From positions 161,052 to 225,051 of the forward strand of contig JAVZCB010000001.1 of assembly GCA_038874595.1 (NCBI GenBank): 64,000 nucleotides of DNA, in the 5' to 3' direction. The translations under genes were made by a program, and so were the position numbers. Below are positions 19,741-26,369 of this stretch, in pieces. Below the pieces are notes generated by a model. It was given only the letters and a program-made list of their open reading frames with translations. It was not told the origin of the DNA and did not search any database. Positions within the stretch are counted from its first letter, which is position 1; every line of letters starts with the position of its first letter. Source of the stretch: Candidatus Micrarchaeia archaeon (GTDB lineage: Archaea; Micrarchaeota; Micrarchaeia; CAILAH01).

Positions 19741-21474
19741 TTACTCAGAACGCTTGAATTTTTTCTCAATGTCCCCCCAACTCATCCTTATGGTTGTTGG
19801 CCTCCCATGGGGGCAAGTATAAGGATTCCTGCATCTGGCAAGCGCTGCAAGAAGTGCGTTCATCTCAGGAATGGTAAGCTCATCACCTCCCTTGATAGCT
19901 TTCCTACACGCACGTGTGGCAATCCTGTGGTCAAGCGTCTCATCAATCGTAACTGGCCCGTTAGCATTTTCCCTTAATTCATCTAGCACATCGCGGATAA
20001 CTTCTGCATCAAAAGCTTTCCCAAAAAGTGCCGGAATAGATATCAGTGCATACTCGCTCCTTCCAGCCATCTCAACAAAAAACCCATACCTTTCAAGCAA
20101 ATTTTTGTTTTGCTCTATTATTTTCTCATCATCGTGGCCAACCGTAAACAGGAAAGGCTTAAGCAACTTGTTCACAGCAACAGCATTCTCCTTGAGCTGC
20201 TGCGTAAACTTCTCATAAAAAACGCGCTCTTGAGCCGCGTGCTGGTCTATCAGCACTAAACCATCATTATCATACCCTATTATGTAGGTCTTGTTTAACT
20301 GCCCCAATGCACGAATGTATAAAAATTCTTCGCCTGGTTGTGTAATGCTCTTTTTCTCCTCAGAGTGGCCTGATTTATGAGTGTTTGTAACTGTATCGGT
20401 TAATACGGTTTGTAATCCTTTTTCTGTGGCATATGCATGTGCCGGCCTGGACATCTTACCATCCGCGCTTGCTATTATTGTTTGGCTGCTGCCCTGAAGA
20501 GATTTTTGTATGGCATTGATAATCATATCCTCAATAAAATGCTCATTCTTAAATTTGACCTCTTCTTTTGATGGGTGTATGTTTACATCAATCATCTCAG
20601 GAGAAAGCCTTATGTGAAGTATTGCAACAGGATATCTTCCAAGGAATATCTTGTCTGAATACCCACGCTCAACTGCACTGGTGATTGTGCTGCTTTTCAC
20701 GAGCCGCCCGTTTATGAATATTACCTGATACTCCCTCGTCTTTCTCGAGTATCCAATTTTAGATACGTATCCACTTATGCGTATATTTTCATTATGATGC
20801 TCAACCCGGATTACATTTTCTGCAGTTTCCTGGCCGAAAGCATGAAACACTTTCCCAAGCTCATCACACTGTGGCGATCGAAACACCTCAGTACCATCCT
20901 TGTATAGCGTGAATGCTATGTTTGGGCTGGCAAGTGAGTACTTTGTAACAAGTGACATAATCTTAGATGCCTCTGCCTCATCTGACTTAAGAAAGTTTAA
21001 GCGCACCGGAAACCTGCTGAACAGGTTCCGCACCTCAACAATAGTGCCCCTAACAATCGGTGATTCCTGGATTTTGGTTGGTATCCCATCATCACCAAAT
21101 TCGGCTGCGTACCCAATATTAGCGCCATTTTTTATAGATTGCACCGAAAGCACACTCACAGCCGCAATGCTCGCAAGGGCCTCACCTCTAAACCCAAGAG
21201 TGCCTATCCTCTCAAGATCCTGGATGCTATGCACCTTGCTGGTTGTGAACCTCCTGCTGCATATTTCTAAGTCATTCCTATCCATCCCCTTGCCGTTATC
21301 AATTACCCTTACCAAACGTTTCCCGCCTTTCTCAATATATACTTTAATATCATCTGCGCCGGCATCTATACTATTTTCAATAAGTTCTTTTACCACTGAG
21401 TATGGAGATGTAATTACTTCACCTGCAGCTATTTTCTCGCGCAACGCCTGCGGCATCTCAATTATTTCACCCAT
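19741..21474 (-). CDS. mutL: DNA mismatch repair endonuclease MutL
   Basis: IAAGEV, KELIENSIDAGA, GFRGEAL, DQHAAQERVFYE, ACR, CPHGRP. Confidence 0.97.
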   Translation of the reverse strand: MGEIIEMPQALREKIAAGEVITSPYSVVKELIENSIDAGADDIKVYIEKGGKRLVRVIDNGKGMDRNDLEICSRRFTTSKVHSIQDLERIGTLGFRGEALASIAAVSVLSVQSIKNGANIGYAAEFGDDGIPTKIQESPIVRGTIVEVRNLFSRFPVRLNFLKSDEAEASKIMSLVTKYSLASPNIAFTLYKDGTEVFRSPQCDELGKVFHAFGQETAENVIRVEHHNENIRISGYVSKIGYSRKTREYQVIFINGRLVKSSTITSAVERGYSDKIFLGRYPVAILHIRLSPEMIDVNIHPSKEEVKFKNEHFIEDMIINAIQKSLQGSSQTIIASADGKMSRPAHAYATEKGLQTVLTDTVTNTHKSGHSEEKKSITQPGEEFLYIRALGQLNKTYIIGYDNDGLVLIDQHAAQERVFYEKFTQQLKENAVAVNKLLKPFLFTVGHDDEKIIEQNKNLLERYGFFVEMAGRSEYALISIPALFGKAFDAEVIRDVLDELRENANGPVTIDETLDHRIATRACRKAIKGGDELTIPEMNALLAALARCRNPYTCPHGRPTTIRMSWGDIEKKFKRSE

Positions 21475-21508
21475 ATAGATAACACCTAATTTTTCAAACC
21501 TTGCTAGG

Positions 21509-24031
21509 CTACCAGCTTTCAATGCTGGTTTGCCGGTCCTCTCTCAGGCTCTTTTTGCCGTGTGCAAGCCTATGCAGTGTCTCTTTGTGCACGAAATCGT
21601 TCTGTTCCAAGCTTTTTGAGAGCTGTGCTGCCTTGTCAACAACTTCGCGTGGCAGGCCGGCAATCCTGGCTACGTGCACACCATAACTCTTATCAGTGCC
21701 GCCCTGCACAAGCTTATGCAGAAATACAACGGAATTCCCGCTTTCCTCAACTGAGACATTGTAGTTGTTTATGTATGGGTACTTTACAGAAAGCAGGTTA
21801 AGAAGATGATAATGTGTTGCAAACATCGTCTTGCATTTTATTTTTTCTGCTATATATTCAATGATTGCCCACGCGATAGCCATCCCGTCATAAGTAGATG
21901 TGCCCCTGCCGACCTCATCAAGAATAACCAAAGAGCGGCTTGTCGCATTGTTAAGTATGTTTGCGCATTCAACCATCTCTGCCATAAACGTAGACTGGCC
22001 ACGGGTAATATCATCGCGTGCTCCAACACGCGTGAACACCCTGTCTATCAAAGGTATCTGTGCGCTTTCAGCAGGCACAAAACAACCTATGTGTGCCATT
22101 ATAGAAATTAGCGCAACCTGTCGCATCACTGTTGATTTCCCAGCCATATTTGGGCCGGTGATTACCATGATTAGGTTATCATTATCAAGCCTTGTATCGT
22201 TAGGCACAAAATTTATTGTAACCCTCTCAACCACTGGGTGCCTACCGCCAATTATTACGAGCGCCCCATCTTCAATAATCGTAGGCCTTTTGTACCTGTT
22301 TTCATAAGATACCTTTGCAAAGCTCTGGTATATGTCAAGCTCTGCAATATATGAAGAAAGGGCGTACATCCTGCTTGTGTACCCACTAAGGTATTCTACA
22401 ATCTTATCATAAATCTCCTGCTCAAGCTCCTTGATTCTCTCCTCTGCGTTGAGGACCATAACCTCCGCTTCTTTCAGCCTTGGGGAAATAAACCGCTCAC
22501 TTGCAAGCTGTGTCTGCTTGCGTATGTATTCCTGAGGCACTTTATCAGCCTGGCTTTTTGGGACTTCAATAAAATATCCTATTATCTTGTTGTATCTTAT
22601 CTTCAGTGTTTTTATTCCTGTCCTCTCCCGCTCTTCCTCCTCGAGCTTCTCCAGCCATTGGTGTGAGTTTCCAATCATATCTCTTAACTGGTCCAGCTCA
22701 TCAGAATATCCTTTCTTAATCACGCCACCTTCGCGTACGAGCTGTTTTGTGTTTTCATCTATCCCTATCCCTATCTGCTTTACCACATCATCAAGTGGCT
22801 CCGAAGCGATAAACTCATCAAAGAATTTCCCATGCATCTTATACTCAGCAAGCATCTGCTTCAGCTCGTTTGCCTTCTCGATTGACTGTTTAAGCATCAG
22901 CAACTCACGAGGTAGTACGCTTCTGTAATTAATGCGGGTTGCAATCCTCTCTATATCACCTATGGATGAGAGTGTGCTTCTTATCTTTTCGAGATGTATC
23001 GGATTGAGCGTAAGCGCTTCAACATTATCAAGCCGTTCATCAATCCTCTTCTTATCCAGCAGCGGTGAAGAGAGCCAGCGCTTGAGCATACGCCCGCCCA
23101 TCGGTGTCACAGTCCTGTCAAGCACGCTTAAAAGTGTGCCCTTTTCACTTCCATCGGCTTGGTTCACAAGCAGGTCAAGATTGCGCATTGTTGTAGCATC
23201 AATAACCATATTCTTAGAAGTGCTATAATACGAAATCTTGTGCAGCCTAGGTAGTGTAGACCCAGCAGCAGTGTATTCCATATATGAAAGCATTCCTGAA
23301 ACTGCCCTCTTCGCATATGGGAACTCTTCTAACCCATAAGGCGCAAAAGATGCAGCACTGCCTGATTTGGATAAAACATACTCTCCGTTTTTCTCATCAA
23401 ACTTGTACGCTTCAATCTCAGTCCTCTTAAACCCATACTCGCGCTCCAGCCTATCGAGCCAATCATATTCCTGCGTTGCGCCTTTTGGCAGTATAACTTC
23501 CGCTGGCCGGTACTTCTCAAACTCAGTATCAATACCATCTTTTGCAAGCTCAGTTGTGAACGCCTCACCTGTCGAGATATCACAGGCACACAGGCCTATC
23601 TTACCTCCATCTGAAAATATACTAAGAATATAGTTGTTTGCTTTCTCGTTCATCAGTGCAGGCTCAATCAGCGTCCCGGGGGTTATTACCCTTACGACAC
23701 CCCTCTTTACCAATCCTTTGGCCTTGCGTGGGTCTTCAAGCTGCTCAGCTATAACTACCTTGTGCCCTTTTCCCATAAGCTTTTTCAAGTACTGCTCAAG
23801 TGCGTGGTAAGGTATGCCCGCAAGCGGCGCCTTCGCATCATTCTTCCCGCGTGATGTGAGGACTATCTGCAGGTCGCGCGATACTATTTTTGCATCCTCA
23901 TAGAACGTCTCGTAAAAATCACCCATCCTGAATAAAACTAAGCAATCAGGATACTTCTTTTTTATCTCCCAATACTGTGCCATTGCAGGAGTAATCCTCC
24001 CTGTAACGCTTTCCCCCACCATCGCTTCCAT
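21509..24031 (-). CDS. mutS: DNA mismatch repair protein MutS (MutS1)
   Basis: TPAMAQY, FRMGDFYE, TGPNMAGKST, STFMAEM, DEVGRGTST, ATHY, SYGVHVA. Confidence 0.97.
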   Translation of the reverse strand: MEAMVGESVTGRITPAMAQYWEIKKKYPDCLVLFRMGDFYETFYEDAKIVSRDLQIVLTSRGKNDAKAPLAGIPYHALEQYLKKLMGKGHKVVIAEQLEDPRKAKGLVKRGVVRVITPGTLIEPALMNEKANNYILSIFSDGGKIGLCACDISTGEAFTTELAKDGIDTEFEKYRPAEVILPKGATQEYDWLDRLEREYGFKRTEIEAYKFDEKNGEYVLSKSGSAASFAPYGLEEFPYAKRAVSGMLSYMEYTAAGSTLPRLHKISYYSTSKNMVIDATTMRNLDLLVNQADGSEKGTLLSVLDRTVTPMGGRMLKRWLSSPLLDKKRIDERLDNVEALTLNPIHLEKIRSTLSSIGDIERIATRINYRSVLPRELLMLKQSIEKANELKQMLAEYKMHGKFFDEFIASEPLDDVVKQIGIGIDENTKQLVREGGVIKKGYSDELDQLRDMIGNSHQWLEKLEEEERERTGIKTLKIRYNKIIGYFIEVPKSQADKVPQEYIRKQTQLASERFISPRLKEAEVMVLNAEERIKELEQEIYDKIVEYLSGYTSRMYALSSYIAELDIYQSFAKVSYENRYKRPTIIEDGALVIIGGRHPVVERVTINFVPNDTRLDNDNLIMVITGPNMAGKSTVMRQVALISIMAHIGCFVPAESAQIPLIDRVFTRVGARDDITRGQSTFMAEMVECANILNNATSRSLVILDEVGRGTSTYDGMAIAWAIIEYIAEKIKCKTMFATHYHLLNLLSVKYPYINNYNVSVEESGNSVVFLHKLVQGGTDKSYGVHVARIAGLPREVVDKAAQLSKSLEQNDFVHKETLHRLAHGKKSLREDRQTSIESW

Positions 24032-24066: not shown

Positions 24067-24408
24067 CTAACGTTCCCCGCTATTTTTAACAAGGTTTGAA
24101 ACGGTTATCCAGTCATCAATTATAGTCTTTGCATTACCTAGGCACTCCTCCATCATCAATTCGCTCTCCAGCCCGTACTTAAGCTCTCCTGCAAGAACAA
24201 TCCCTAGTGATGCAGCATCCTCCTGCCTGCATATCTTCTCAAGCTCTTCTATTTTTGGAGCAAGCCGTGGAAATTCTGCCTTTGCCTTTGTAACCGCCTC
24301 CGTCAACTCCTTATCGTATTTCCCACCTGCAAGCTTTTCGGTGCAGGTCCTTAGAAAAGTCACCTGTATCCGTACTTCCTCAGGGTCTGGTTTTTTGCTT
24401 TTTGTCAT
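24067..24408 (-). CDS. Small helical hypothetical protein (candidate immunity/partner of the upstream gene)
   Basis: GGTGA RBS; starts 11 nt after the stop of 24420-26318. Confidence 0.6.
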   Translation of the reverse strand: MTKSKKPDPEEVRIQVTFLRTCTEKLAGGKYDKELTEAVTKAKAEFPRLAPKIEELEKICRQEDAASLGIVLAGELKYGLESELMMEECLGNAKTIIDDWITVSNLVKNSGER

Positions 24409-24419
24409 AATATCACCTT

Positions 24420-26318
24420 CTAATAACTCATAAAATAATGTAACATCGCAATGGAATCACGGGCCCACGGCGAAATATCGGCACCTTCCATATGAAGCCT
24501 TGCAATTGTACGATTGATATCTTTAACGCGCGGTAGAATCTGCTTAATCGTGTCTTCATTTACACCCATCCTGGAAAGCATCTTTGTAGTTACTATGTCA
24601 TCAATTTCATCTGCGGTGCCCACAAAAAACCTAAGCTTTACTTTTGTATTGCCTACAATTGCTTTTATCTCTAGCCCGTTTATCCTTGAGAGATTCTTTG
24701 CGACATCATCTGATTCAATGGAATATGTTAGTGCTGCCTTTTGGGATATTGCCTTTGCCTCTTCCTTGGTTATTTTACCGCTGGATACGAGCGCATCAAA
24801 CGCGGCAGCTGTCATGCTATCTGCATTTATATGACCAAACTGGTTAGCTGTGCTCGGCCCGATTAAGTTCAGGTTAGCCTGATGCACTGCTTTGTTGTTT
24901 GATTCAGTTATCTTCTTTAGCGCATTTTGCATTTTTGGGTCCTCAAATTCGTATAAAACCTTTATTTGCAACCCAGTTGTCCTCTCAGGTGGTGATTTTT
25001 TCATCAGCTTAACTTTGCGCAGCCCATCAACAAAATTGTACACAATCTTCTTTTCTGAATCTGACAACGATTTAAGCGAATGCTGAATCTCAGCATCATT
25101 AATCAGCTCGCTTAAGCTAAACGGAACTTCCTTGCCAGCACTCTTGTACATAACCTTGCCTTCCCTAATAACAATATCTGTTGAGAGTATTGATGCTTTG
25201 GCACATTTTTCCTCAAACCCAAGCGAGCTTTTAATCCCATATCTCTTAAAAACCTCTTTTGCTGACTCCTTAAGCGCACCTTGTATTTCTTTCTCAAGCC
25301 CTTTTCGGCCGAGTATAACTACCTCATCACCCTTCTCAGTAATCCTGACTACATATAAGCCTTTATTACTGAGCTTTTTCATTGCCTCAAAATAAACCAG
25401 AAGCCCAAGATCACCGGCTTTTGTGTCTATACCGTTAAGCAACCACGTACCGCTCTTGTCAAGCACGTATACACATCCATCCTTAGCAATCTCTTCAATG
25501 TTCGCGTATTTTTTAACCAGCATATCAAGCGAGCCATCAACCTTTTCCAGTGACTTAAAAATGCTTTCTGTATGATATGGAATCGATTTACGGGCGACCT
25601 CTAGCTTATCGGTCACTTCCGCAGGGATTTGTTTCACAAAATCATCTGCCCGCCTAATTACCTCTTCTGTTGATTTTAGCCCAAACAGCTTTTCGACTGC
25701 GCGGCCCTTATTCAACTTTTTGATTAATTTTATTGAGGCGGCACCGCCGGGAATAAGCATGAGCGCACCTACAATATATAGGTTTATGCGCGCAAGTGAT
25801 GCATTCTCGCCTTCCTTAACTGCCTTATCATAATCAAGCATTGCAGTGGTAACAGCCACCGGCCCACCGACTACCGGGACTGATTCTGCAGCTGTTCTCA
25901 TAGCTTCTTTTTTGAGCATTGCCCACGGTGAATTTTTCAAATAGTCATCAAGAAATTTTTTTGTCTTAAGATTCAGCTCATACGCTTGTTTTGACCTGTT
26001 GAGCGCAAAATCCTTAATCTCATATGCGGACAGTGCTAAACTAGATTCGTTAAGCTCCTTTATCAAGTGGTCAACCTGCTTAATCACAGACTTGCAGTTT
26101 TCTTCTGCAGCAATTAATTGTATATGCTGCGGGGACTCCTTTCTCAGCTCTTGTGTAGTTTTCAAGTAATACTCAGCCGATTTCTTAATTGATGTGAGGT
26201 ATTTGAGCGCATTCAGGTATGCCTGCACTTTCTCTATCTGGGCAAACATCTGCATCTGCTCTTCTTGAGTTAGGATGTTTCCAGATGGCTGTTGCTGTAG
26301 CATCTCTTTGGTAGGCAT
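24420..26318 (-). CDS. Polymorphic-toxin-like protein: helical N-terminus, PT-TG-like linker, degenerate GGDEF-like domain(s)
   Basis: ESVPVVGG...LMLIPGGAASIK; VLDKSGTWLLN..TKAGDLGL...VRITEKGDEVVIL; second ANQFGHINAD motif. Start moved to MPTKEM so it does not overlap the NAD kinase. Confidence 0.5.
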   Translation of the reverse strand: MPTKEMLQQQPSGNILTQEEQMQMFAQIEKVQAYLNALKYLTSIKKSAEYYLKTTQELRKESPQHIQLIAAEENCKSVIKQVDHLIKELNESSLALSAYEIKDFALNRSKQAYELNLKTKKFLDDYLKNSPWAMLKKEAMRTAAESVPVVGGPVAVTTAMLDYDKAVKEGENASLARINLYIVGALMLIPGGAASIKLIKKLNKGRAVEKLFGLKSTEEVIRRADDFVKQIPAEVTDKLEVARKSIPYHTESIFKSLEKVDGSLDMLVKKYANIEEIAKDGCVYVLDKSGTWLLNGIDTKAGDLGLLVYFEAMKKLSNKGLYVVRITEKGDEVVILGRKGLEKEIQGALKESAKEVFKRYGIKSSLGFEEKCAKASILSTDIVIREGKVMYKSAGKEVPFSLSELINDAEIQHSLKSLSDSEKKIVYNFVDGLRKVKLMKKSPPERTTGLQIKVLYEFEDPKMQNALKKITESNNKAVHQANLNLIGPSTANQFGHINADSMTAAAFDALVSSGKITKEEAKAISQKAALTYSIESDDVAKNLSRINGLEIKAIVGNTKVKLRFFVGTADEIDDIVTTKMLSRMGVNEDTIKQILPRVKDINRTIARLHMEGADISPWARDSIAMLHYFMSY

Positions 26319-26369
26319 AATATGACTATTGAGCTCTATGCTTAAATAGTTTTCCGGCAAGGTAATCTT

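What the first reader, a model, noticed from the sequence alone, without database searches (positions are those of the whole stretch)
24067..26318. Polymorphic-toxin-like gene carrying degenerate GGDEF-type nucleotidyl cyclase domain(s), plus a small downstream partner
Seen: (i) about 140 residues of helical bundle; (ii) a hydrophobic hairpin ESVPVVGG...ALMLIPGGAASIKLIKK (about 25710-25890) resembling pre-toxin TG linkers; (iii) VYVLD-KSGTWLLN-GIDTKAGD-LGL...VVRITEKGDEVVIL (about 25305-25475), which follows the GGDEF pattern D..FK.IND..GH..GD..L...R.GGDEF with the metal-binding Asp and the GDE retained; (iv) a more eroded second copy, ANQFGHINAD; (v) a 113-aa helical gene with its own GGTGA RBS 11 nt downstream. 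Known: PT-TG precedes variable toxin tips that are followed by immunity genes; GGDEF domains act as dimers; c-di-GMP signalling is not established in archaea. Inference: an exported effector whose tandem palm domains form an intramolecular pseudo-dimer that makes cyclic or oligo-nucleotides, or drains NTPs, in a host or competitor. I know of no described archaeal system like this.
Basis: partly seen in the sequence, partly recalled or inferred. Interest (0 to 1): 0.75.

Follow-up and report, generated by a model that had tools for sequence, protein, structure and literature searches.

The report
Divergent GGDEF-like cyclase with small partner
A tiny Micrarchaeota archaeon carries a fast-evolving two-gene unit: a 632-residue protein whose core is a hidden but apparently active relative of bacterial GGDEF nucleotide cyclases, and a small helical partner that travels with it; this is a new branch of a known enzyme family, and its biological role is unknown.

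Summary
Gene X (24420-26318, minus strand, 632 aa) matches nothing in Pfam, NCBIfam or PDB by sequence. A profile of its 29 relatives aligns to canonical GGDEF domains (hhalign E 3e-6, 4.7e-7 for the domain alone). A confident AlphaFold model (pLDDT 93.7) returns GGDEF domains as its top 33 structural matches (Z 7.2-9.5). The metal-binding, base-binding and GG[DE]EF-equivalent residues (D287, N295, G302-D303, R325, G330-D331-E332) are invariant or nearly so. A second conserved domain carries K476 and GPS-x2-N-x2-GH-x3-D. It looks like a decayed copy of the first, but this is not proven (P about 0.005).

The family is tiny: 30 representatives among 1.84 billion proteins, and every named one is from Micrarchaeota. 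It is patchy (20 of 401 genomes) and also occurs inside unannotated giant proteins of up to 7,702 aa. A small helical partner gene sits beside almost every copy. Between two genomes of the same genus, X and Y are 34% and 40% identical, while flanking genes are 51-79% identical.

The polymorphic-toxin reading is not supported. There is no PT-TG match, no export signal and no swapping of C-terminal toxin domains. The role could be conflict or host interaction, or signalling; this remains open.

The parts
24420..26318 (-). Gene X, 632 aa (stop codon TAG at 24420-24422)
   Evidence: ORF and translation. Four full-length relatives at 34-45% identity over the full length.
26342..26348 (-). TATA-like TATTTAA about 27 nt upstream of ATG 26318; candidate promoter for a leaderless or short-leader X-Y transcript
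   Evidence: Sequence read. Function is inferred.
25935..26267 (-). N-terminal helical region, residues 18-128
   Evidence: AlphaFold helices 18-61, 66-95, 98-108 and 110-128, block pLDDT about 70-89. Conserved only in the five full-length orthologues.
25710..25889 (-). Moderately hydrophobic G/A/P-rich hairpin, residues 144-203; the second arm is followed by a strongly basic stretch
   Evidence: Hydropathy. Equivalent stretches lie upstream of the module in most relatives. pLDDT is below 50. No PT-TG match.
24945..25601 (-). Domain 1: GGDEF-type palm domain, residues 240-458
   Evidence: VIA-align Z 7.2-9.5 to 33 GGDEF structures over model residues 26-202, up to 260 in some rows. Model pLDDT 93.7.
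25305..25478 (-). Catalytic core, residues 281-338: beta1 with D287, N295, G302-D303, R325, and the hairpin G330-D331-E332
   Evidence: hhalign register against canonical GGDEF. Invariant or near-invariant across 29 sequences.
24423..24938 (-). Domain 2, residues 461-632: conserved alpha/beta domain, possibly a decayed second palm, followed by C-terminal helices
   Evidence: Secondary-structure order matches domain 1 from the nucleotide loop onward. hhalign against GGDEF and against domain 1 gives P 0.004-0.008. No independent structural match.
24819..24893 (-). Domain 2 signature, residues 476-500: K476, G487-P488-S489, N492, G495-H496, D500
   Evidence: K476, N492 and D500 are invariant; G487, P488, G495 and H496 are at least 90% conserved.
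24413..24417 (-). GGTGA ribosome-binding site for gene Y
   Evidence: Sequence read.
24067..24408 (-). Gene Y, 113-aa helical partner
   Evidence: Adjacent to X in all orthologues with known context: G105, G334 and MAG N3G76. Related partner families accompany the distant relatives.

Best explanation
X is a highly divergent but catalytically competent member of the GGDEF (palm) nucleotide cyclase superfamily. It is so far seen only in Micrarchaeota. Shown: domain 1 has the GGDEF fold and keeps the residues that in diguanylate cyclases bind the two metals (D287, D331, E332), the guanine base (N295, D303) and the phosphate (R325). Inferred: it uses GTP or another NTP to form a phosphodiester bond. 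Domain 2 follows directly and carries its own invariant K / N-x2-GH-x3-D set. It most likely holds the second (acceptor) nucleotide, so that one chain acts as a Cas10-like or adenylyl-cyclase-like pseudo-dimer. Because domain 2 lacks metal ligands, the product could be a linear or singly linked dinucleotide rather than a symmetric cyclic one. The G/A/P-rich hairpin, followed by a basic stretch, probably ties the enzyme to the membrane with the catalytic part in the cytoplasm. The small helical protein Y is a dedicated partner that binds X and controls, inhibits or chaperones it. The pair is an accessory two-gene unit. It evolves fast and its distribution does not follow taxonomy. This fits a role in conflict or host interaction better than housekeeping signalling, although export is not shown.
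For: Fold and motifs: hhalign E 3e-6 and 4.7e-7. VIA-align ranks 1-33 are all GGDEF, Z 7.2-9.5. The weak Foldseek hits are dominated by palm enzymes. A GGDEF profile run without filters directly touches some members at the right place, for example P0008 at 20.7 bits. Conservation: D287, N295, G302, D331, E410, K476, N492 and D500 are invariant in 29 sequences at about 20% identity. Domain 2 likeness. Hairpin. Partner: adjacent and translationally coupled (gaps of 4-26 nt, or 4-nt overlaps) in most short forms. Homology chain: Y to G053 (jackhmmer), G053 to G169 and G361, g1 against g2 hhalign prob 89%, E 2e-6. Of 12 genomes with the partner, 11 are among the 20 of 401 genomes with X. Partner subtype follows the X clade. 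Fast evolution: same-genus identities are X 34% and Y 40%, against MutS 79%, NadK 76%, MutL 64% and DUF6390 51%. Patchiness: taxonomic family labels are no more clustered on the tree than when shuffled, and G000 (f1) groups with G105 (f9). No other neighbouring gene recurs.
Against: No enzyme activity, product or binding has been measured. The lysine of the GGDEF FK motif is missing (T291-W292 stand in its place). The hairpin is only borderline hydrophobic and poorly modelled. Partner homology between the short Y type and the longer types is weak (hhalign P 7e-4). Fast evolution and patchiness also occur in non-conflict genes of DPANN genomes. Related genomes are not independent samples, so the co-occurrence count overstates the statistics.
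Confidence: 0.5

Rival explanations
1. One reading: X is an exported polymorphic toxin. Its hairpin is a PT-TG-type pre-toxin linker, and its cyclase domain makes or drains nucleotides in a competitor or host cell. Y is the cognate immunity protein.
For: The small partner is tightly coupled. The pair evolves fast at a syntenic locus. Distribution is patchy and incongruent with taxonomy. The module is embedded in giant proteins; by background knowledge, DPANN giant proteins are proposed host-interaction factors. By eye the hairpin has a P-x-x-G ... R ... PGG ... K pattern that I recall from PT-TG regions; this rests on memory and was not tested.
Against: PF14449 gives no match in this genome at E<=10, none over its cut-off in 401 genomes, and none on the excised hairpins. 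There is no signal peptide or known secretion or trafficking domain. No protein has the same N-terminus with a different C-terminal domain. No arrays of spare toxin or immunity cassettes were seen. In giant proteins the module lies mid-protein. The basic stretch after the hairpin suggests a cytoplasmic catalytic domain.
Confidence: 0.15
2. X is an ordinary membrane-associated second-messenger synthase, a diguanylate-cyclase-like signalling enzyme. It dimerises through its N-terminal helices, and Y is its regulator, in the manner of SiaC-SiaD or YfiR-YfiN.
For: The catalytic and guanine-binding residues are intact. The layout of an N-terminal helical region, then a hydrophobic segment, then a GGDEF-like domain is that of many bacterial DGCs. 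Canonical GGDEF genes occur in 74 of 201 genomes of the phylum, including this one. Archaeal GGDEFs show DGC activity (PMC13725321).
Against: Only 20 of 401 genomes carry the family. It evolves much faster than its neighbours. It is inserted in the middle of giant proteins. An invariant extra domain 2 is unknown in DGCs. No EAL or PilZ was found in this genome (genome 93.5% complete). There is no RxxD inhibitory site.
Confidence: 0.2
3. The module is a non-catalytic nucleotide-binding or structural palm, like the degenerate GGDEF receptors PelD, LapD and FimX.
For: Degenerate GGDEF domains commonly become receptors. LapD and FimX are among the structural matches. The FK lysine is lost.
Against: The metal-binding acids D287 and D331 are invariant and E332 nearly so across about 20% identity. 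Degenerate receptors usually lose these residues.
Confidence: 0.08
4. The palm is a template-dependent polymerase, primase or reverse-transcriptase-like enzyme of a mobile element or virus.
For: Foldseek lists RTs, RdRps, DNA polymerases and herpesvirus primase subunits at E 0.04-0.3.
Against: These matches are weak and generic. With VIA-align, GGDEF stands clearly above polymerases (Z 9.5 against at most 6.0). The motif register is GGDEF-specific. There are no fingers or thumb domains, no PHROG or PADLOC match, no mobile-element genes nearby and no compositional anomaly.
Confidence: 0.04

Closest known systems
GGDEF diguanylate cyclases (Pfam PF00990; PleD, WspR, DgcZ, SiaD)
   Same: Same fold (Z up to 9.5). 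Same order and register of motifs: the beta1 Asp, the N ... GD base-binding loop and helix, and R-x-(x)-G-[DE]-E on the beta2-beta3 hairpin. Often membrane-linked, with N-terminal helices.
   Different: Not detected by the Pfam model. Lacks the FK lysine, the first G of GG, the final F, and the RxxD site. Always followed by an invariant second domain. Always accompanied by a small helical partner. Also found inside giant proteins. Restricted to Micrarchaeota.
Tandem-palm enzymes: Cas10/Cmr2 and class III adenylyl cyclase C1-C2 pseudo-heterodimers
   Same: One catalytic palm plus a degenerate palm in a single chain would give an asymmetric active site. Cas10 and class III cyclases appear as weaker structural matches (Z 5.4-6.4).
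   Different: No sequence relationship was detected. Domain 2 is not shown to be a palm. There are no HD, D4 or CRISPR components.
Polymorphic toxins with PT-TG linkers and downstream immunity genes
   Same: A long helical N-terminus, a hydrophobic G/P-rich linker before an enzymatic domain, a small tightly linked downstream gene, and fast evolution.
   Different: No PT-TG match. No secretion domain. No exchange of C-terminal toxin domains on a constant N-terminus. No spare cassettes. The enzymatic module is often internal.
DGC-regulator pairs (SiaD-SiaC, YfiN-YfiR)
   Same: A cyclase controlled by a small dedicated protein encoded next to it. SiaD is among the top structural matches (7e6g, Z 9.4).
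   Different: Y has no detectable similarity to SiaC or YfiR. No binding has been shown.
GTP cyclohydrolase III (MJ0145), an archaeal palm enzyme
   Same: An archaeal GTP-using palm domain related to GGDEF and cyclases (Z 6.5).
   Different: A clearly weaker match than GGDEF. The motifs differ. It acts in a metabolic context.

Membership tests
GGDEF superfamily (fold and catalytic core) | Palm (beta-alpha-beta-beta-alpha-beta) fold of the GGDEF type | tested here: met
   VIA-align ranks 1-33 are all GGDEF, Z 7.2-9.5, 118-184 residues aligned, on a pLDDT 93.7 model.
GGDEF superfamily (fold and catalytic core) | Metal-binding Asp on beta1, and acidic pair on the beta2-beta3 hairpin (GG[DE]EF) | tested here: met
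   D287 and D331 are invariant, E332 at least 90% conserved. hhalign aligns them to DxD and G[DE]E.
GGDEF superfamily (fold and catalytic core) | Guanine-binding Asn and Asp (PleD N335 and D344, from established knowledge) | tested here: met
   N295 invariant, D303 at least 90% conserved, both aligned to IND and GD.
Pfam PF00990 GGDEF (family membership by model) | Score over the Pfam gathering cut-off | tested here: not met
   No PF00990 hit on X at E<=10. The whole-genome search finds only a different gene on contig 2. The relationship is seen only by profile-profile and structure comparison.
Diguanylate cyclase (function) | Makes c-di-GMP from two GTP as a dimer | not testable with these tools
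   Needs an enzyme assay.
Diguanylate cyclase (function) | FK lysine (PleD K332) and full GG[DE]EF signature | tested here: not met
   T291-W292 stand at the FK position. The hairpin reads K-G-D-E-V.
Tandem-palm pseudo-dimer (Cas10 / class III cyclase type) | The second domain is a palm facing the first | tested here: inconclusive
   The secondary-structure order and N-x7-D spacing match domain 1. hhalign P is 0.004-0.008. No domain-level model could be made. The Atlas search was uninformative.
Polymorphic toxin system | PT-TG pre-toxin domain (PF14449) | tested here: not met
   No hit in this genome at E<=10. None on the excised hairpins of 9 members at E<=10. None over the cut-off in 401 genomes, and none of the listed sub-threshold hits is on a contig carrying an X-like gene. 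The B. subtilis control scored over the model's cut-off.
Polymorphic toxin system | Conserved N-terminal delivery region with variable C-terminal toxin domains | tested here: not met
   The exhaustive profile search finds no protein that shares only the N-terminus. There is no paralogue in this genome.
Polymorphic toxin system | Secretion signal or secretion-system-specific domain | tested here: not met
   No N-terminal hydrophobic segment. No Pfam or NCBIfam domain.
Polymorphic toxin system | Small cognate gene immediately downstream | tested here: met
   Protective function was not tested.

The most novel reading that the evidence does not exclude
The module is the enzymatic warhead of a previously unrecognised archaeal inter-cellular effector system. 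Micrarchaeota would insert the hairpin-bearing proteins, from 600-aa minimal forms to 7,700-aa giants, into the membrane of their host or a competitor. These proteins would produce a nucleotide signal or deplete GTP there, while the small helical partner keeps the enzyme silent in the producer.
Probability: 0.15. Interest if true: 0.85.

Novelty: new variant of a known kind. Interest (0 to 1): 0.6.

Why it matters
GGDEF enzymes are central to bacterial signalling, and their presence and use in archaea is only now being documented. This finding adds a second, hidden GGDEF-like lineage that sequence models miss and that has been seen only in one DPANN phylum. It has a new fixed architecture: hairpin, catalytic palm, then a conserved second domain. 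It has an obligatory small partner and also occurs inside some of the largest unannotated proteins of these ultra-small symbionts. That gives an enzymatic foothold in otherwise completely unannotated giant proteins. It also gives a concrete, testable pair of genes for asking how Micrarchaeota signal or fight. If domain 2 is a decayed palm, the family would also be an independent example of the single-chain asymmetric cyclase design seen in Cas10 and eukaryotic adenylyl cyclases.

Tried and rejected
Sequence libraries:
- Pfam, NCBIfam and PDB-sequence searches on X and Y returned nothing meaningful.
- A PDB search with the family profile gave only a sub-threshold DosC GGDEF hit at E 0.53.
- PADLOC and PHROGs returned nothing.
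- Pfam on 14 relatives, including giants, returned nothing.
- Pfam on the partner family returned nothing.

Structure searches:
- Foldseek against PDB and BFVD gave no hit at E<=0.001. The weak lists were dominated by palm enzymes.
- The ESM Atlas search on domain 2 was uninformative, because the Atlas's own model is poor.

Hypotheses tested and dropped:
- PT-TG was tested four ways and rejected.
- Functional linkage to MutS-MutL was rejected. The linkage holds only within the genus, with an extra gene inserted in G334. It is absent in G105 and in the other 14 loci.
- A mobile-element or viral origin was rejected. No recurrent neighbour, integrase or compositional shift was found.
- jackhmmer from the downstream ORFs of G031, G354 and G364 found no relatives. 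Their membership in the partner family rests on position alone.

Limits:
Contexts came from the genome search and the fetch from genomes instead.
The second model used the window's own sequence.
Full report
**What is there.** On the minus strand the window carries X (24420-26318, 632 aa), Y (24067-24408, 113 aa), mutS (21509-24031) and mutL (19741-21522). X ends in TAG. GGTGA lies at 24413-24417 and the Y start codon at 24408, leaving an 11-nt gap. The longer frame that starts at TTG 26402 is unlikely to be used. The orthologues align from ATG 26318, and a TATTTAA box sits about 27 nt upstream of that ATG, inside the extension. GC content is unremarkable. The genome (G000) is 0.92 Mb in 7 contigs and 93.5% complete. 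The nearest named relatives are 'Candidatus Micrarchaeota archaeon'.

**No family by sequence, and a very small family.** X and Y match nothing in Pfam, NCBIfam, PDB sequences, PADLOC or PHROGs. A profile of X and two orthologues was scored against 1.84 billion representative proteins and found only 30.
- Five are full-length orthologues of 619-647 aa.
- The other 25 share only the region of about residues 230-530. They range from 270 to 6,046 aa.
- A six-frame search of 401 genomes of the phylum found the family in 20, with open frames of up to 7,702 aa.
- Pfam finds nothing in 14 of these relatives, including the giants.
- Every named member is a Micrarchaeota hypothetical protein, apart from one automatic 'TPR' label.

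**The core is a GGDEF-type palm.** I aligned the C-terminal module of 29 members, which share about 20% identity. Eight positions are invariant: D287, N295, G302, D331, E410, K476, N492 and D500. Seven more are at least 90% conserved: D303, Y309, E332, G487, P488, G495 and H496.

With this alignment AlphaFold gave a confident model of residues 215-632 (pLDDT 93.7, pTM 0.90). The earlier full-length model, built from three sequences, was mediocre (pLDDT 67).

VIA-align compared the model with 48,161 PDB representatives.
- Ranks 1-33 are GGDEF domains, with Z 7.2-9.5 and mostly 125-147 aligned residues, which covers nearly the whole 155-170-residue domain. They align to model residues 26-202, extending to 260 in some rows.
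- Next come GTP cyclohydrolase III (Z 6.5), Cas10/Cmr2 (Z 5.7-6.4) and class III cyclases (about 5.5).
- Foldseek alone gave no significant hit, but its weak lists were dominated by palm enzymes.

Independently, I collected 27 canonical GGDEF domains from genomes of the same phylum and compared the profiles.
- The whole module gave hhalign prob 88%, E 3e-6.
- Domain 1 alone gave prob 92.5%, E 4.7e-7.
- The register pairs D287 with the first Asp of DxD, N295 with the Asn of IND, G302-D303 with GD, R325 with the conserved Arg, and G330-D331-E332 with G-[DE]-E.

By established knowledge of PleD, these are the metal ligands (D327, E370), the second catalytic acid (E371), the guanine contacts (N335, D344) and R366. 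An HMM of the canonical domains, run without filters, also touches several family members directly at this position; the best is P0008 at 20.7 bits.

Not retained are the FK lysine (T291-W292 in X), the first Gly and the Phe of GGDEF, and an RxxD site. I conclude that domain 1 is a true but very remote GGDEF homologue whose catalytic machinery is under selection. Enzymatic activity itself is inferred.

**The second domain.** Residues of about 461-632 contain the other invariant block: K476, GPS(487-489), N492, GH(495-496) and D500. In the model, N492 sits in a short helix and D500 at the start of a long helix. A beta hairpin, a helix, a second hairpin and another helix follow. This is the same order as in domain 1 from N295 and D303 onward, with the same N-x7-D spacing.

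hhalign of domain 2 against GGDEF and against domain 1 picks exactly this register, but only at P 0.004-0.008. Domain 2 has no conserved acids at the positions equivalent to beta1 or the hairpin. So a decayed duplicate that keeps a nucleotide-base site is plausible; I put it at about 60%. It is not established.

**The N-terminus and hairpin.** Residues 18-128 are predicted helical and are conserved only among the five orthologues. Residues 144-203 form two G/A/P-rich arms. Only the second arm is hydrophobic enough for a membrane helix (Kyte-Doolittle 1.71), and a strongly basic stretch follows it. Comparable stretches precede the module in most relatives, commonly 120-250 residues upstream of the catalytic Asp and further away in several giants.

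The resemblance to PT-TG could not be substantiated. PF14449 gives no hit on X at E<=10, none in the whole genome, none on nine excised hairpins, and none over its cut-off in 401 genomes. The B. subtilis control scored over the model's cut-off.

**The partner.** Y-like genes lie immediately downstream of X in every orthologue with known context.
- G105: 109 aa.
- G334: 103 aa.
- MAG N3G76: consecutive locus tags.

Around 16 relatives I found small helical ORFs next to the X-like gene, usually translationally coupled. They fall into three types.
- g0: the Y type.
- g1: 179-214 aa, in G053, G169 and G361.
- g2: 204-229 aa, in G073, G065, G301, G163 and G060.

The types are linked by sequence. 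jackhmmer links Y to G053 and G053 to G169 and G361. hhalign links g1 to g2 (prob 89%, E 2e-6) and, weakly, g0 to g1 (P 7e-4).

A g1+g2 profile hits 12 of 401 genomes, and 11 of those are among the 20 genomes with X. The exception has its hit at a contig edge. Related genomes are not independent, so I give no p-value, but the association is plain. Partner type follows the X clade on the tree. No other neighbouring gene recurs.

**Evolutionary behaviour.** Between G000 and the same-genus genome G334 the locus is syntenic (nadK and DUF6390 upstream, mutS and mutL downstream). Identities are as follows.

| Protein | Identity, G000 vs G334 |
|---|---|
| MutS | 79% |
| NadK | 76% |
| MutL | 64% |
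| DUF6390 | 51% |
| Y | 40% |
| X | 34% |

The X of G105, from a different taxonomic family, is closer at 39%. On a maximum-likelihood tree, taxonomic family labels are no more clustered than when shuffled. Well-supported clades mix families f1 and f9. The pair is therefore accessory, fast-evolving and either horizontally mobile or differentially lost.

**Reading.** The enzymology is on firm ground: a GGDEF-superfamily palm with intact catalytic residues, which I rate at about 0.8. The architecture of hairpin, palm, conserved domain 2 and obligatory partner is new.

The biological role is open. Several features argue for a conflict or host-interaction role with Y as inhibitor or chaperone:
- fast evolution;
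- patchy distribution;
- the obligatory small partner;
- insertion into giant proteins.

Every specific hallmark of polymorphic toxins that I could test failed, and nothing indicates export. A conventional signalling cyclase with a regulator remains a serious rival, because canonical GGDEF genes are frequent in this phylum and archaeal GGDEFs have recently been shown to be active (PMC13725321). Earlier work had found GGDEF very rare in archaea, with only REC-GGDEF proteins noted in Micrarchaeum (PMC5847659).

**Caveats.** One genome in the GGDEF census (G029) is flagged as unpublished. The count of 74 of 201 includes it; it would be 73 of 200 without it. It was left out of alignment A3, and no other claim rests on it.

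This same stretch had been noted earlier in the scan by first readers only. No earlier follow-up on it was shown to me.

Noticed in passing
G000 contig 2, 19686-20183 (locus L021:739-2067): This genome encodes a canonical 442-aa GGDEF protein with an intact GGEEF motif (98.7 bits), next to a typical archaeal gene. PF00990 matches over the cut-off occur in 74 of 201 genomes of the phylum (the count includes one unpublished genome, G029). No EAL or PilZ was found in this genome.
   Followed up: partly
G156:C2 about 123000-143000 (L061); G163:C24 (L060:4434-15293); G143:C48 (L063:820-9981): Giant open frames of 7,702, 3,619 and about 3,100 aa in 1.2-1.5 Mb Micrarchaeota genomes. They have no Pfam domain, carry a mid-protein hydrophobic hairpin and have the GGDEF-like module embedded. 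Nothing else in them is annotated.
   Followed up: partly
window 19741-24031: A bacterial-type mutS-mutL pair lies directly downstream of X-Y on the same strand. The linkage holds only within the genus and is not part of the X-Y unit.
   Followed up: partly
L067:7300-8715 (G334): In the same-genus genome a 471-aa gene is inserted between Y and mutS; it is absent from this window. The protein has an N-terminal hydrophobic segment and looks like a helical repeat.
   Followed up: no
L059:11326-12909 (G053): A 527-aa multi-pass membrane protein that looks like FlaJ/TadC lies directly upstream of the partner and X-like gene pair in G053. It was seen in one locus only.
   Followed up: no
   Followed up: no
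L056:10596-11156, L057:3133-3672: The 179-186-aa partner proteins look like two tandem Y-like repeats, each ending in a conserved Trp. The short Y type aligns to the second repeat.
   Followed up: partly
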